DNA of 63,451 nt, filler included, from Octopus bimaculoides (GCF_001194135.2; 12 parts of 11 records of this genome joined end to end with filler, not necessarily neighbours in it); one strand, 5' to 3'. Shown: positions 11,761-62,249, counted from the first letter of the whole stretch. Numbers and translations: made by a program. Notes: a model not told the origin generated them from the letters alone.

Positions 11761-12760
11761 NNNNNNNNNNNNNNNNNNNNNNNNNNNNNNNNNNNNNNNN
11801 NNNNNNNNNNNNNNNNNNNNNNNNNNNNNNNNNNNNNNNNNNNNNNNNNNNNNNNNNNNNNNNNNNNNNNNNNNNNNNNNNNNNNNNNNNNNNNNNNNNN
11901 NNNNNNNNNNNNNNNNNNNNNNNNNNNNNNNNNNNNNNNNNNNNNNNNNNNNNNNNNNNNNNNNNNNNNNNNNNNNNNNNNNNNNNNNNNNNNNNNNNNN
12001 NNNNNNNNNNNNNNNNNNNNNNNNNNNNNNNNNNNNNNNNNNNNNNNNNNNNNNNNNNNNNNNNNNNNNNNNNNNNNNNNNNNNNNNNNNNNNNNNNNNN
12101 NNNNNNNNNNNNNNNNNNNNNNNNNNNNNNNNNNNNNNNNNNNNNNNNNNNNNNNNNNNNNNNNNNNNNNNNNNNNNNNNNNNNNNNNNNNNNNNNNNNN
12201 NNNNNNNNNNNNNNNNNNNNNNNNNNNNNNNNNNNNNNNNNNNNNNNNNNNNNNNNNNNNNNNNNNNNNNNNNNNNNNNNNNNNNNNNNNNNNNNNNNNN
12301 NNNNNNNNNNNNNNNNNNNNNNNNNNNNNNNNNNNNNNNNNNNNNNNNNNNNNNNNNNNNNNNNNNNNNNNNNNNNNNNNNNNNNNNNNNNNNNNNNNNN
12401 NNNNNNNNNNNNNNNNNNNNNNNNNNNNNNNNNNNNNNNNNNNNNNNNNNNNNNNNNNNNNNNNNNNNNNNNNNNNNNNNNNNNNNNNNNNNNNNNNNNN
12501 NNNNNNNNNNNNNNNNNNNNNNNNNNNNNNNNNNNNNNNNNNNNNNNNNNNNNNNNNNNNNNNNNNNNNNNNNNNNNNNNNNNNNNNNNNNNNNNNNNNN
12601 NNNNNNNNNNNNTTTCTGCAGAGATATTCCCGGATTTAGCGCGCCAAAACGAAGACTTTTGAATCTTACCATAAAAATATAATTAACAGAACCGTGTACA
12701 CGTGCTTCATTCGTGGGGAACAACTAGTATACGATTCTGAGAATTATATTTATTTAATGG

Positions 12761-12824
12761 TCCGTAGTGATGAGAAACAGATATTTTCGATAAGAAAATG
12801 TTAATTTCGAAACTAGTTTACGGA
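12761..12824 (+). ncRNA. Type I hammerhead ribozyme motif (core GTGATGA)
   Basis: TCCGTA-gTGATGA-GAAA...TTTC-GAAA-CTAG-TT-TACGGA: 6-bp stem I, closed stem II, ACTAGT palindromic stem III. The inverted copy at 13681-13700 keeps an intact CTGATGA. Confidence 0.75.
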
Positions 12825-12827
12825 TAA

Positions 12828-13200
12828 TTAAATACGAATGCAAATACGCCTAATTATTTTTGCAGAGATAGAACTAAGTGCCACTTCTCAAAGAGATGCA
12901 AGACAAATAATGTAGTATACCGCTGTGACGTCCACACAAATAGCCAAACGAAATCACACATATGCGCTACTAAGAAACAAATGATTCTTAGATATAATAC
13001 GCACCAATCGAGCTTCAGAAATAGGAGTAAGGCCAACTCAACAGGGCTCAGTACATACATTTGGGAGCTTAAGGATAAAAACGTAGATTATAGTTTAAAC
13101 TGGCGTATACTCACAAAAACAACCTCCTACAACACCACCAAGAGACGCTGCGATCTTTGTCTATCAGAACGCCTAGCTCTACTTACAGCTAATCAACCCC
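12828..13200 (+). pseudogene. Penelope-like GIY-YIG endonuclease ORF fragment (~124 open codons)
   Basis: CRDRTKCHFSKRCKTNNVVYRCDV...LRYNTHQSSF...STGLSTYIWELK...WRIL...YNTTKRRCDLCLSER matches the PLE EN C-terminal motifs. Confidence 0.9.
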
Positions 13201-13366
13201 TNNNNNNNNNNTATGGATAGACCATAGTTAAGCTCCAGGTTCGGTGATTATGTGAATAAGGTGTCCAACGCAGGTCATATATCAGCATGTGAATATAAGG
13301 ATTTACTTTTCGTAATGAGATAAAAAACCAAGGCTGTGTACATTATAGAACATTTATAAATAGAAG

Positions 13367-13414
13367 GTCTTACAGCTGTTTCCAGGATATTTATTATATC
13401 CCTTCATCCGAGAC
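13367..13414 (-). ncRNA. Type I minimal hammerhead ribozyme motif (core CGGATGA)
   Basis: Reverse complement GTCT-CgGATGA-AGGGATAT aataa ATATCCTG-GAAA-CAGCTG-TA-AGAC. Confidence 0.75.
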
Positions 13415-14800
13415 GGTGTGAGAGGATAATTAAGCAATAGTTGATTTAGATAAGATAGGAAATAGAGAGTGAATGCAGAGATATTGTATTTGTAAATCCA
13501 TTGTTTAGGCAGAATGGAACACATATAAGGTATGTATACCATTCTTATATGTATACCATTCTTATATGTATACCATTCTGCCTAAACAATGGATTTACAA
13601 ATACAATATCCCTGCATTTACTCTCTATTCTCTATCTTATCTAAATCAATTATTGCTTAACATTTTCTTACTGAAAATATCTGTTTCTCATCAGTACGGA
13701 CCGTTAAATAAATATAATTCTCAGAATCGTATACTAGTTGTTCCCCGCGAATGAAGCACGTGTACACGATTCTGATTATTATATTTTTATGGTAAGATTC
13801 AAAAGTCTTCCCTGGTATTAAATTGATATTGATTAATATCCAATTTTTTACCCTAATGTTTTAATTTAATTAACCATAACCACGTTCTCAAAGATGGTAT
13901 ATTCGATGCAGATACCATTTTCTGCAGAGATATTCCCGGATTTAGCGCGCCAAAACGAAGACTTTTGAATCTTACCATAAAAATATAATTAACAGAACCG
14001 TGTACACGTGCTTCATTCGTGGGGAACAACTAGTATACGATTCTGAGAATTATATNNNNNNNNNNNNNNNNNNNNNNNNNNNNNNNNNNNNNNNNNNNNN
14101 NNNNNNNNNNNNNNNNNNNNNNNNNNNNNNNNNNNNNNNNNNNNNNNNNNNNNNNNNNNNNNNNNNNNNNNNNNNNNNNNNNNNNNNNNNNNNNNNNNNN
14201 NNNNNNNNNNNNNNNNNNNNNNNNNNNNNNNNNNNNNNNNNNNNNNNNNNNNNNNNNNNNNNNNNNNNNNNNNNNNNNNNNNNNNNNNNNNNNNNNNNNN
14301 NNNNNNNNNNNNNNNNNNNNNNNNNNNNNNNNNNNNNNNNNNNNNNNNNNNNNNNNNNNNNNNNNNNNNNNNNNNNNNNNNNNNNNNNNNNNNNNNNNNN
14401 NNNNNNNNNNNNNNNNNNNNNNNNNNNNNNNNNNNNNNNNNNNNNNNNNNNNNNNNNNNNNNNNNNNNNNNNNNNNNNNNNNNNNNNNNNNNNNNNNNNN
14501 NNNNNNNNNNNNNNNNNNNNNNNNNNNNNNNNNNNNNNNNNNNNNNNNNNNNNNNNNNNNNNNNNNNNNNNNNNNNNNNNNNNNNNNNNNNNNNNNNNNN
14601 NNNNNNNNNNNNNNNNNNNNNNNNNNNNNNNNNNNNNNNNNNNNNNNNNNNNNNNNNNNNNNNNNNNNNNNNNNNNNNNNNNNNNNNNNNNNNNNNNNNN
14701 NNNNNNNNNNNNNNNNNNNNNNNNNNNNNNNNNNNNNNNNNNNNNNNNNNNNNNNNNNNNNNNNNNNNNNNNNNNNNNNNNNNNNNNNNNNNNNNNNNNN

Positions 14801-60110: not shown

Positions 60111-60417
60111 GTTAGTGCCTTTATATATATCTGTGGATGTGTGTATGTATATACAATGTAAATTGTGATGAGTGTATGTTTATGCCCTAATCAATTCTTT
60201 TCGTTTTTTTTTTCATATTAAATTCAGAAATATTCCTAATTTACTCCTAAAGTGTTTTCTAGAAATTTCCATAAATATTTATCGTTTTTTCTGAAAATTA
60301 TGAGGAAACAAAGTCGACTTAGACAAAATTTTACTAAACTCCTCTCCTGACCTTCGGGGCACACTTATATAGGTACGTATATATGTAATGTACGTATAAT
60401 GTATGTATCTTGTATAT

Positions 60418-60775
60418 GCATGGTTGTGTGGTAGGTAGCTTGGTTCCGAACCACATGGTTCTTGTTTCTGTCCAACTGCGTGGCACCTTGGGCAGGTGTC
60501 TTCTACTATAGCCCCGAATCAACCAAAGCCTTGTGAGGGAATTTGGTAGGAGGAAACTGTAAGAAGCCCGTCCTATATGTATGTATATGTAGTTTTTTGT
60601 GTCTGTCTCTCCACCATCACTTTACAACTGAATTTTGTGTGTTTACGGCCCCGTAACTTAGCGGTTCAATAAAAGATACTTATTGTATAAGCACTTGGCT
60701 TACAAAGAATACGTCCTGGGGTCGATATCTTCGACTAAAAGGCGCTGCTCCAGTATGGCTTCAGTCCAACTGATT
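60418..60775 (+). mobile_element. SINE family A, full length
   Basis: GGTTGTGTGGTAGGTAGCTT...CTGCGTGGCACCTTGGGCAGGTGTCTTCTACTATAGCC...CCTGGGGTCGATATCTTCGACTAAAAGGCG. Confidence 0.9.
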
Positions 60776-61013
60776 CCTAACTCTCTGATGTTTCCTATTT
60801 TTAGTGAAAGTTATTGATTTTATATGAGGTTATGTATATATGAAACACAAAGCATATGTACCTGAGTTTGGCTGAAGCTATGTATTAAAGGCTGGATCAA
60901 TAACGAAAGCAAAGTGGTGATGCACCAAATATTCACTTATTAAGGATGGATTTTTAGAAGATTTCATTAAAAAAAATGTTTATTTTAAAAAGATTCATGA
61001 GGAACATATAACC

Positions 61014-61084
<71 letters not shown>

Positions 61085-61085
<1 letters not shown>

Positions 61086-62249
61086 ATATAAAAATAAAAA
61101 GATAAAGAGAGCAATGGAAGGGTTGGAAGAATATTTTATGGATAATAGAGTCTTACAGCTGTTTCTAGGAAGATCCAGTACTTCCCTTCATCGGAGACAG
61201 AAAAAGTAAAGGAATCGATTATTATATCCATAGGCGGATAGTTTTAGTATGAAGTGATATAGAGTGTGATGCGCTGAAAAAAGAAAGAAAGAGAGAATAG
61301 TACTTGAAGTGTAGTTTCATTCCAGTAGTAAATATCCGTGTTAAGTAATCCTTGTGGGAATAATCCGGAAATAGTTGCTGCAGCAAAGCCTGAGATAGCA
61401 GAGGTGAATATATGCCATATTGTGTCCGATGATATTTTTCCTGTGTTTACTAGAAGAATGCCCGAGTCGAGTGAGAAGTGTGCGTAGGATAAGTAGGTCA
61501 AGTGATGAAGACAGAATGGGAAGTGGATAGAGGAAAGATTGAGGTGGAGAATGGTAGTGGTATATTTTTATGGTCAGTTGATCTGACTGGATAGAGGGGA
61601 TGAGCATAGGGAGGGAAGGAGGAATGGGGGATGAGGTTAAAAGGTTTAGTGAGTAGGAAGGAATACGCAGATGTAGTTTATAGGTGGTGGGGGTATGGGT
61701 GATAAACCAAGGATAGAAATAAAGGGAGAGATGTTGGGAAAGGTAGTTGGTAGTATCATATTCTAGAAGATAGCCAAACCTATTTACAGACGGTGGAATG
61801 GGATTGAAAGAAACCACGTAGTCTGTATGTGGTGGTGGTGTTACTGTGAAGTAGAGTGTAGAGGAAGTAAATTTGGGGATATGTATATGTGGTGATATGA
61901 TCGAAAGGAAATAAGACTATTCAAAAGATGGTAAAAGATGGATATTTTTGCCAGGTTGAATAGGTTGCCTGTGGGGAGCCGTGCGATTATGTTGCGTGAT
62001 TGTTTGTGCAATTTTGCTTGTGATAAAATTTAAATGTTTGGAAAGAGCGGTGATTGCAGTTGCTAAACGCTTAGTTATATCGATTAAGTAGAGTGGGAGA
62101 ATTGTATTTTAAAATATGGAACGCCTCCATTAGGGAAAGCTTGCAGTTGGAGCGCTGGCCCTGGTATGGAGTTCCAGAATCTAAGATGGACCATTTTAAA
62201 GTGTATTGGGTATTTGTGCTTTTGAGGTGATGAATGTGATTGGCTAATG
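61085..62249 (-). mobile_element. Penelope-like element 3' part: GIY-YIG C-terminus, ~800-bp 3' region, terminal HHR
   Basis: Minus strand LANHIHHLKSTNTQYTLKWSILDSGTPYQGQRSNCKLSLMEAFHILKYNSPTLLNRYN*AFSNCNHRSF (62249 to ~61990). Confidence 0.85.
61150..61198 (-). ncRNA. Type I minimal hammerhead ribozyme motif (core CCGATGA)
   Basis: Reverse complement GTCT-CcGATGA-AGGGAAG tactggat CTTCCTA-GAAA-CAGCTG-TA-AGAC, on the same strand as the upstream EN ORF. Confidence 0.78.

What the first reader, a model, noticed from the sequence alone, without database searches (positions are those of the whole stretch)
12613..61198. Window-wide family of hammerhead-ribozyme-bearing fold-back elements (candidate non-autonomous Penelope-derived retroelement system)
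Seen: about 9 type-I HHR motifs in 63 kb (12761, 13367, 30924, 33799, 34109, 38030, 52153, 52328, 61150), plus partial copies at 13681 and 32881. They come from about six unrelated stem sequences, yet every one has a short palindromic or near-palindromic stem III (ACTAGT, CAGCTG, CTCgGAG, CACTGCAGTG, TCCgGGA, TCAATTGA). Most lie in 300-1200-bp inverted-repeat elements. Established: Penelope-like elements carry minimal type-I HHRs with palindromic stem III in their pLTRs, thought to cleave as dimers, and often insert with an inverted partial pLTR. Inference: the short ORF-less palindromes are non-autonomous elements mobilised by PLE RT/EN, whose remnants lie nearby (21 kb RT; 3, 12.8 and 62 kb EN). 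They would ordinarily be annotated as MITEs. I cannot tell whether this has been described for this genome.
Basis: partly seen in the sequence, partly recalled or inferred. Interest (0 to 1): 0.85.

Follow-up and report, generated by a model that had tools for sequence, protein, structure and literature searches.

The report
Hammerhead circles copied by Penelope machinery
The self-cutting-RNA (hammerhead) motifs are real and belong to eight repeat families; four families are short protein-free units whose copies wrap round like pieces of a circle and were likely pasted into TA repeats by the enzyme of Penelope-like jumping genes, a partnership so far only proposed, while the other four are shown or likely tail ends of longer Penelope-like elements, one with two core letters swapped.

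Summary
The hammerheads are real (5 hits against 0.08 in shuffles), but the window is 12 stitched pieces, so its neighbours are mostly not neighbours. The motifs fall into eight genome-wide families. C and A are 3' ends of autonomous Penelope-like elements (PLEs) with Hydra-clade motifs; A2 and G are probably such ends too. B, D, E and F are ORF-less units of fixed period (549, about 310-340, 466, 468 nt). Their copies are circularly permuted arcs that often exceed one unit, end 3' at (TA)n and carry inverted arms almost only at the 5' side (58 against 1 in 137 loci). Fold-back junctions differ from copy to copy, so these are insertion scars, not MITE-like terminal repeats; only 2 of 11 hits examined from an evenly spaced sample fold back. 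Best reading: retrozyme-like RNA circles copied by the Hydra-type PLE enzyme. Cleavage, circles and the helper are untested; RNA reads were uninformative. An extra family (23069) has a natural G3-C8 core. Estimated load: about 50,000 intact motifs. This scan noted similar elements on other pieces of this genome and the swapped core in other genomes.

The parts
12613..12827 (+). Family B arc (unit positions 346 round to 9 of a 549-nt monomer); hammerhead core at 12767, here decayed (G at position 3; family has C)
12861..13196 (+). GIY-YIG endonuclease remnant of a Hydra-type PLE; abuts B in this copy only (1 of 30 B loci)
13212..13529 (-). Family A2 3' end with hammerhead (core 13410-13404, decayed here; family CCGAUGA); probably the tail of an A-related autonomous PLE
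13560..13661 (+). Inverted 5' arm of the A2 copy, without hammerhead
13657..13810 (-). Family B arc (384-535), partial hammerhead lacking GAAA and stem III (the '13681' copy)
13808..14055 (+). Family B arc (235-480), joined 5'-to-5' with the previous arc; ends at a gap
20858..21996 (-). Broken RT of a canonical PLE lineage (GLKF and DKG motifs); not linked to any hammerhead family here
23054..23195 (+).
30584..31037 (+). Family C: 3' UTR, intact hammerhead (core 30929-30935) and tail of an autonomous Hydra-type PLE; ends in (TA)n; no inverted arm
31093..31272 (+). C-terminal end of another Hydra-type endonuclease, beyond the TA repeat (separate insertion, inferred)
32809..32891 (-). Family A tail, cut off by a window linker inside stem III (the '32881' copy)
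33011..33326 (.). A2 fold-back made of sequence downstream of the hammerhead only; TA repeats at both outer ends
33666..33851 (-). Family D arc, inverted arm; decayed core at 33843
33948..34310 (+). Family D arc of about one unit or slightly more; decayed core at 34115
37863..37967 (-). Family E inverted arm (49-152), outer end in (TA)n, no hammerhead
37967..38277 (+). Family E arc (351 round to 188 of a 466-nt monomer); family-type core CCGAUGA at 38036; cut by a linker
52029..52333 (-). Family F arc (304 round to 130 of a 468-nt monomer); core at 52208
52332..52578 (+). Family F arc (419 round to 207), joined 5'-to-5' with the previous arc; core at 52333, GAAA decayed to GGAA
61070..62249 (-). 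Family A: endonuclease end (62247-62044), about 850 nt of 3' UTR, hammerhead (core 61194-61188, CCGAUGA) and tail of an autonomous Hydra-type PLE; no inverted arm; cut by a contig gap

Best explanation
The motifs are type-I hammerhead sequences of eight repeat families, four of which (B, D, E, F) are ORF-less fixed-length units whose copies are wrap-around arcs, likely copied from self-cleaved, circularised RNA by the reverse transcriptase-endonuclease of the Hydra-type Penelope-like elements whose own hammerhead-bearing 3' ends make up two families (A, C) and likely a further two (A2, G). Steps: (1) inferred: a locus longer than one unit is transcribed; two hammerheads pair through their palindromic stem III and cleave, releasing a monomer; (2) inferred from published retrozymes: the ends are ligated into a highly self-paired circle; (3) footprint shown, agent inferred: a PLE enzyme cuts (TA)n DNA and starts reverse transcription at one of two or three internal A/T-rich sites 140-300 nt downstream of the cleavage site; (4) footprint shown: copying stops anywhere, or runs past its start and gives 1-2.8 units; (5) footprint shown, chemistry inferred: the other end of the cut primes a second cDNA at the same sites and the two are joined 5'-to-5', giving the fold-back.
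For: Complete cores, complementary stems I and II and palindromic stem III in every family majority, with compensatory changes: B stem I T-A in 11 and C-G in 8 of 28 parsed copies; F stem III 8 nt or 4 nt, both palindromic. Fixed periods from pairwise offsets: B 540-560, D 320-340, E 460-480, F 460-480; none for C or G, weak or single-locus ones for A and A2. Every position of each monomer is read through by at least 20 of 53 (E), 11 of 30 (B), 18 of 29 (D), 9 of 25 (F) loci, seed locus excluded; arcs over one unit in 16, 7, 15 and 6 loci. No PLE protein match belonging to the unit in these loci. Second turn shares private letters with the first: 57 of 81 in E against 14% for other loci, 19 of 45 in B against 8%. 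5'-to-5' inversions in 58 of 137 loci, 3'-to-3' in 1. Free 3' ends next to (TA)n: E 14 of 25 and 17 of 24 in two samples, B 10 of 28, background 1.5%. The same scars in the autonomous-type families: upstream inverted arm 7 of 28 (A), 7 of 29 (A2), 4 of 30 (C), 8 of 47 (G), downstream 0; TA 3' ends 11 of 16, 7 of 21, 13 of 21, 12 of 35. C links to RT-EN on both sides (L317, L318, L320) and A to L325; their proteins have DKT, CxCx5C and a C-terminal EN, the Hydra marks of 10.1101/2021.04.23.441226, which also reports (TA)n targets. E shares the unusual CCGAUGA core with A and A2. Circular folding z: E -11.2, B -7.9, F -4.5. PMC11167929 shows a PLE protein cutting and extending both strands and starting inside the RNA.
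Against: No cleavage or circle was shown. RNA reads from three runs (about 6% of each read) gave 139-223 reads on E and 89-121 on B per 11-13 million, on both strands, 31-88% running on into flanks, with no pile-up at the predicted cut; library type is not known, so this is inconclusive, but it looks like read-through. No sequence homology was found between any monomer and the ends of 52 fetched PLE loci, so descent from Hydra pLTRs is not shown. A linear multimer explains the arcs equally well. Sharing of private letters is weak in D (77 of 379 against 14%) and F (10 of 57 against 8%), and between inverted and main arms in B (10 of 70). D folds little better than shuffles (z -1.9) and its over-one-unit count is inflated because the majority unit (310) is shorter than the observed period. 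In PMC11167929 hammerhead cleavage was dispensable for insertion in vitro and the start site was not homologous to the target. Loci are the best-scoring 40 or fewer per search, not a random draw.
Confidence: 0.6

Rival explanations
1. Same elements and same helper, but the template is a linear multimeric transcript from tandem master loci; circles are not formed or not used, and the hammerhead is an inherited passenger or a protein-binding fold.
For: Arcs over one unit and read-through at every position follow from a multimer too; loci with 1.7-2.8 units exist; no cleavage signal in RNA reads; cleavage was dispensable in vitro for an anole PLE (PMC11167929).
Against: All eight families keep a complete core with covarying stems across unrelated sequences; no long array was seen among 137 loci (but gaps are frequent); known animal retrozymes of this size make circles (PMC7229834).
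Confidence: 0.25
2. The short units are circles or multimers, but the helper is another enzyme (a Naiad- or Neptune-type PLE, or a LINE), not the Hydra-type PLE.
For: No monomer-to-Hydra homology found; a canonical PLE lineage with 1,280 first-look candidates is present; Naiads also prefer (TA)n and make inverted copies (10.1101/2021.04.23.441226).
Against: Hydra-type RT is abundant (9,233 first-look candidates), bears hammerheads of the same build and leaves the same scars; E shares the CCGAUGA core with A and A2; 5'-to-5' overlapping inversions and internal starts are PLE traits, not LINE traits (established knowledge).
Confidence: 0.12
3. All copies are just 5'-truncated stumps of autonomous PLEs with inverted pLTRs; there is no separate non-autonomous family.
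For: True for A and C, likely for A2 and G; this is how PMC4209133 read most single minimal hammerheads.
Against: In B, D, E, F the sequence upstream of the hammerhead returns, at a fixed distance, to the sequence downstream of it instead of leading to an ORF; in C the downstream sequence leads into the ORF start.
Confidence: 0.05
4. MITE-like DNA elements with terminal inverted repeats that happen to hold hammerhead-like sequence.
For: Short, ORF-less, TA-flanked palindromes.
Against: Inversion junctions scatter round the unit, most copies have no inverted arm, ends are polar (3' TA, 5' ragged).
Confidence: 0.02

Closest known systems
Metazoan non-LTR retrozymes (Cervera and de la Pena 2020, PMC7229834, parts 2-4 of 6 read; Li, Clavereau and Pollet, 10.64898/2026.07.22.740005, parts 1-3 of 5 read)
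   Same: ORF-less units of a few hundred bases, one type-I hammerhead per unit, low GC, self-paired fold, PLEs in the same genome; PLE helper proposed; monomer share can run from 0 to 1.
   Different: Here mostly dispersed arcs of 0.3-1.8 units rather than arrays; hammerheads are of the PLE-like build with 4-10-nt palindromic stem III; copies carry PLE-type 5' inversions and (TA)n-anchored 3' ends, which the parts read do not describe for retrozymes; circles and cleavage not shown here; no monomer-pLTR homology found, unlike Xenopus.
Hydra-clade Penelope-like elements (Craig et al. 2021, 10.1101/2021.04.23.441226; passages and section 11 read)
   Same: Families A and C: C-terminal GIY-YIG, DKT motif, CxCx5C linker, hammerhead, (TA)n targets, inverted 5'-truncated copy.
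   Different: Described there as a small number of families; here thousands of RT remnants in several subfamilies; 3' UTRs of about 850-950 nt. No tree against reference Hydra sequences was built.
[quoted passage not shown]
   Same: Type I, palindromic stem III, extra base after A9, opposite-strand pairs 100-700 bp apart, many unrelated families per genome, U3-A8 core variant.
   Different: Family-wide CCGAUGA (A, A2, E) and G3-C8 (G) cores are not in the parts read; estimated load of about 50,000 exceeds the 2,000-9,000 given there.
Head-to-head inverted pLTRs and 'tails' of EN+ PLEs (Arkhipova et al. 2013, PMC3846280, passages; Frangieh et al. 2024, PMC11167929, parts 1-2 of 4)
   Same: Head-to-head inversions, alternative internal RT start sites, cutting and extension of both strands, trans-mobilisation through pLTR sequence.
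   Different: Here start sites are A/T-rich and abut (TA)n; the 2013 paper explains inversions by self-priming on an antisense template, a rival to two-ended priming.
Non-autonomous Chlamys PLEs such as MRC1 (Craig et al. 2021, passage)
   Same: Non-autonomous PLE derivatives forming pLTRs and head-to-tail copies.
   Different: Green-algal, mostly without hammerheads, and similar to their autonomous partners at the 3' end.

Membership tests
Type I hammerhead ribozyme | Core CUGANGA, GAAA, UH with three helices in type-I order | tested here: met
   Family majorities B, C, D, F canonical; A, A2, E with U4C; G with G3-C8
Type I hammerhead ribozyme | Covarying stems | tested here: met
   B stem I T-A/C-G; F stems I and III; G stem I G-U/A-U in 13 and 7 of 20; unrelated stems across eight families
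Type I hammerhead ribozyme | Match to a curated Rfam hammerhead model | tested here: not met
   No hammerhead among 150 listed of 154 matches at E<=10; minimal PLE-type motifs are found by descriptors in the papers read
Type I hammerhead ribozyme | Self-cleavage at the predicted site | not testable with these tools
   RNA reads show no end pile-up at the site but are fragmented 150-nt reads
Metazoan non-LTR retrozyme (B, D, E, F) | Small ORF-less unit with one type-I hammerhead | tested here: met
   549, about 310-340, 466, 468 nt; no PLE protein match in the unit
Metazoan non-LTR retrozyme (B, D, E, F) | Tandem repeats with two or more complete hammerhead units | tested here: inconclusive
   44 of 137 loci exceed one unit, longest about 2.8 units; no long array seen; many loci end in gaps
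Metazoan non-LTR retrozyme (B, D, E, F) | Expressed as abundant circular RNA | tested here: inconclusive
   Low, two-stranded read depth with flanks in three runs of unknown selection
Metazoan non-LTR retrozyme (B, D, E, F) | Highly self-paired monomer | tested here: met
   Circular MFE z -11.2 (E), -7.9 (B), -4.5 (F); D only -1.9 (25 shuffles each)
Metazoan non-LTR retrozyme (B, D, E, F) | Canonical loop 1-loop 2 tertiary contacts | not tested
   Not examined
Hydra-clade PLE (A, C) | Single ORF with RT and C-terminal GIY-YIG | tested here: met
   L318, L320, L317 (C); L325 (A); homologues of about 710 aa
Hydra-clade PLE (A, C) | DKT for DKG; CxCx5C linker; no CCHH in EN | tested here: met
   DKT in L318, L325-L328; CNCx5C in L188, L189; no CxxC inside the GIY-YIG core, read by eye
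Hydra-clade PLE (A, C) | Hammerhead in pLTR and (TA)n targets | tested here: met
Hydra-clade PLE (A, C) | RT groups with reference Hydra families in a tree | not tested
   No named reference sequences were available from the tools; Pfam gave no family
MITE | Fixed terminal inverted repeats shared by all copies | tested here: not met
   58 of 137 loci inverted, junctions scattered
Naiad PLE | N-terminal EN and no hammerhead | tested here: not met
   EN is C-terminal and hammerheads are present

The most novel reading that the evidence does not exclude
This genome holds tens of thousands of hammerheads in many families of viroid-like RNA circles that are reverse-transcribed by rolling round the circle and are inserted by two-ended priming at palindromic (TA)n by the Hydra-clade Penelope enzyme; the scars name the missing helper of animal retrozymes and map its start sites, and one young family runs on an active natural G3-C8 hammerhead.
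Probability: 0.35. Interest if true: 0.75.

Novelty: new variant of a known kind. Interest (0 to 1): 0.5.

Why it matters
Which enzyme moves animal retrozymes, and whether the template is a circle, is left open in the papers read. Young families (E about 97%, B about 95% to majority) give mapped start sites, a target and a candidate enzyme, so both questions become directly testable. The both-ends-at-TA geometry also offers an explanation for the long-known inverted pLTRs of Penelope elements. Practically, such repeats would be filed as MITEs or unknown repeats, and natural U4C and G3-C8 cores are missed by standard hammerhead searches. The ingredients are each known, which caps the score.

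Tried and rejected
Rfam found no hammerhead. Naiad was my first label for the EN remnants and was dropped: Naiads have an N-terminal EN and no hammerhead. First attempt to extend family A fetched the wrong side or gaps. 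Pfam did not recognise the Hydra-type proteins. No wrap-around was found for A, A2, C or G, and no ORF was reached upstream of G. No link between the 21-kb RT family and any hammerhead family in 30 loci with 1.5-kb flanks. No motif shared by all families downstream of the cut: only E-F (65% over 213 nt, E 0.001), a 14-mer in B-F and an 11-mer in A-A2. No RNA holder was listed on record in the run search. RNA reads that 'go back' round B (14 reads) are not evidence of a circle, because genomic copies cross the same seam. Monomer MFE folding of seven window motifs gave the hammerhead stems I and II clearly for 12767 and 23069 and partly for 38036, as expected for motifs thought to work as dimers and for decayed copies. 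Lunse et al. (PMC5785218), on PLE hammerhead variants, could not be read and may describe the core variants; bioRxiv supplements were closed.

Full report
Observation. The nine motifs and two partial copies are present. A type-I hammerhead descriptor with a palindromic stem III gave 5 window hits with at most one core mismatch against 1 hit in 12 trinucleotide-preserving shuffles, and 10 against a mean of 2.2 when two mismatches were allowed. Rfam listed no hammerhead (150 of 154 matches shown). Five of the nine window copies have damaged cores, but the majority sequence of each family is complete.

The window is a patchwork. Eleven N-TTAATTAATTAA-N linkers split it into 12 pieces. Six pieces were placed and lie on six contigs of a 2.34-Gb assembly: C2 (12.7-23 kb), C12 (30.9 kb), C6 (33-38 kb), C1 (52 kb), C63050 (55-62 kb) and C40102. 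So the window is a sample of the genome, not a cluster. In 60 evenly spaced 10-kb stretches (506,557 non-N bases) the descriptor found 15 intact-core motifs against 0-2 in five shuffles, about 27 per Mb or roughly 50,000 genome-wide (95% range 28,000-92,000, assuming the stretches are typical). The window's three intact hits are not in excess (P 0.11). Of 11 sample hits examined (the 10 with stem III of 4 nt or more and one other), 2 lie in inverted repeats and 5 belong to or resemble window families. Earlier scan notes call the animal an octopus; I did not test this.

Families. Searches of the own genome returned the best 28-51 matches per query; first-look candidates (lower bounds) were A 1,052, A2 2,431, B 410, C 2,339, D 51, E 740 and 1,635, F 27, G 104 and 486. 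Duplicate loci (both arms of one fold-back, or places met in two searches) were dropped before counting. All families have complementary stems I and II and a palindromic stem III; B and F show compensatory changes within the family. A, A2 and E read CCGAUGA (U4C) with an extra unpaired pair at the base of stem II.

Autonomous-type ends. A copies share the hammerhead end and vary upstream, where the longest reach an endonuclease frame on the same strand; locus L325 holds RT, EN and the A 3' UTR in order. C is the 3' end of an RT-EN element (L318, L320), with an inverted copy upstream in L318, and the sequence after its hammerhead runs into the ORF start in partial tandems such as L317. The proteins have DKT, a CxCx5C linker and a C-terminal EN without CCHH, the marks of the Hydra clade, which targets (TA)n and bears hammerheads (10.1101/2021.04.23.441226, section 11 and passages). 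A2 shares hammerhead and tail with A and shows no wrap-around; G extends upstream into a microsatellite-rich stretch with no period and no ORF reached. Both are read as such ends by inference.

Wrap-around units. In B, D, E and F the upstream sequence returns to the downstream sequence at a fixed offset. Majority monomers are 549, 310 (observed period 320-340), 466 and 468 nt. With the seed locus left out, every position is read through by at least 11 of 30, 18 of 29, 20 of 53 and 9 of 25 loci, so there is no fixed terminus, and 7, 15, 16 and 6 loci exceed one unit (D is inflated by the short majority). No PLE protein match belongs to the units. Where a copy overlaps itself, private letters recur in the second turn: 57 of 81 in E (14% in other loci), 19 of 45 in B (8%), but only 77 of 379 in D (14%) and 10 of 57 in F (8%), the two older families. 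E and F monomers are related (65% over 213 nt); none matched the ends of 52 fetched PLE loci except as nested copies. Folded as circles, E, B and F are far more stable than shuffles, D is not.

Insertion scars. Ends are polar. Free 3' ends cluster at two or three A/T-rich places (E near 152 and 241; B near 172 and 295) and abut (TA)n in 14 of 25, 17 of 24 and 10 of 28 scorable cases against 1.5% background; alignments run into the repeat, so exact ends are uncertain by several bases and microhomology is inferred, not measured. Inverted arms are 5'-to-5' in 58 of 137 loci and 3'-to-3' in one; the junctions scatter round the unit, and the outer ends of inverted arms use the same start sites. A, A2, C and G show the same polarity at lower frequency (26 of 134 with an upstream inverted arm, none downstream; counted by a slightly different rule). 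The fold-back is therefore made at insertion and is not a MITE-type terminal repeat.

Mechanism. I commit to: dimer-assisted self-cleavage of a longer-than-unit transcript, ligation to a circle, cutting of (TA)n by a Hydra-type PLE enzyme, internal priming, rolling-circle reverse transcription, and priming from both ends of the cut to give the fold-back. The scars are shown; cleavage, circle and helper are inferred. Support from print: a purified anole PLE protein cuts and extends both strands and starts inside the RNA, though at a site not homologous to the target and without needing hammerhead cleavage (PMC11167929, parts 1-2 of 4); animal retrozymes form circles and PLEs are the proposed helper (PMC7229834, parts 2-4 of 6). 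Self-priming on an antisense template is a published rival for the inversion step (PMC3846280, passages).

RNA. Three raw runs of the same species label, about 6% of each read, gave 139-223 reads on an E copy and 89-121 on a B copy, on both strands, many running into flanks, with no pile-up at the predicted cut. This neither shows nor excludes circles.

In 20 copies the core has G at 3 throughout and C at 8 in 19 (GUGAACA 16, GUGAUCA 2, one each of two others), and 25 of 28 loci of a second search read GUGAACA (3 not parsed, one place also among the matches of the first search). Position 7 varies, stems I and II are strong and stem III is palindromic. The C3G/G8C double change partly restores activity in the laboratory (PMC11167929; PMC8495972, one passage). 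Two paper searches returned no report of a natural G3-C8 core in their listings, but the most relevant paper could not be read, and this scan has noted the swap in other genomes.

Comparison and verdict. Opposite-strand minimal hammerheads in truncated PLEs (PMC4209133, parts 1-2 of 4), inverted pLTRs, and retrozymes as PLE derivatives (10.64898/2026.07.22.740005, parts 1-3 of 5) are known. A search for hammerhead, ribozyme and octopus listed no paper devoted to this. What the data add is the joint footprint: dispersed wrap-around arcs with PLE-type scars matching a co-resident Hydra-type element, plus family-wide core variants. My reading was fixed before I opened earlier scan notes; those notes split between 'stumps' and 'retrozymes', and both hold here, for different families. 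New variant of a known kind; interest 0.5.

Noticed in passing
window 10041, 23225, 25500, 31476, 32892, 38278, 44180, 46494, 51865, 55185, 62250: Eleven 100-base linkers join unrelated pieces; they create false inverted repeats and false neighbours.
   Followed up: yes
window 23054-23195: Young family (95-98% alike) with a natural G3-C8 hammerhead core; parent element not found.
   Followed up: partly
window 38036, 61194, 13410: Family-wide U4C core together with an extra unpaired pair at the base of stem II in three families, one non-autonomous and two autonomous-type; effect on cleavage untested.
   Followed up: partly
window 12613-14055: Composite of three B arcs, a Hydra-type EN piece and an A2 fold-back; the A2 and B arms meet 3'-to-3' at a shared 5-base overlap, suggesting a template switch or deletion. 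The 137-base perfect repeat beside both gaps may be an assembly artefact.
   Followed up: partly
window 20858-21996: Broken RT of a canonical PLE lineage (DKG), 1,280 first-look candidates in the genome; its hammerhead, if any, was not found.
   Followed up: partly
L112:1305-1792: RNA reads show several T>C and A>G differences absent from the contig run laid beside them; could be A-to-I editing of fold-back RNA or just other copies. Needs DNA of the same individual.
   Followed up: no
P0001-P0120: Many Hydra-type homologues of about 700-750 aa sit on contigs of 2.4-2.8 kb, about one element long; these might be unit-length transcripts or circles of autonomous PLEs.
   Followed up: no
L201:4880, L223:2379, L224:925, L240:9026, L256:2633: Further hammerhead candidates outside the eight families in the evenly spaced sample; L201 has a 12-nt near-palindromic stem III, L223 a nearby repeat at about 335-base period.
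   Followed up: no
L339: A G fold-back flanked on both sides by family C 3' UTR sequence.
   Followed up: no
window 34429-35111 and 49561-50395: Other repeats with inverted arms but no hammerhead hit; several dispersed SINE-like repeats recur through the window.
   Followed up: no
window 29360-29743: Frame resembling the C-terminal part of a LINE RT (by eye; no Pfam hit).
   Followed up: no
window 55285-58700: About 2.5 kb of purine-rich degenerate repeat followed by GAT-rich repeats, with extreme strand skew.
   Followed up: no
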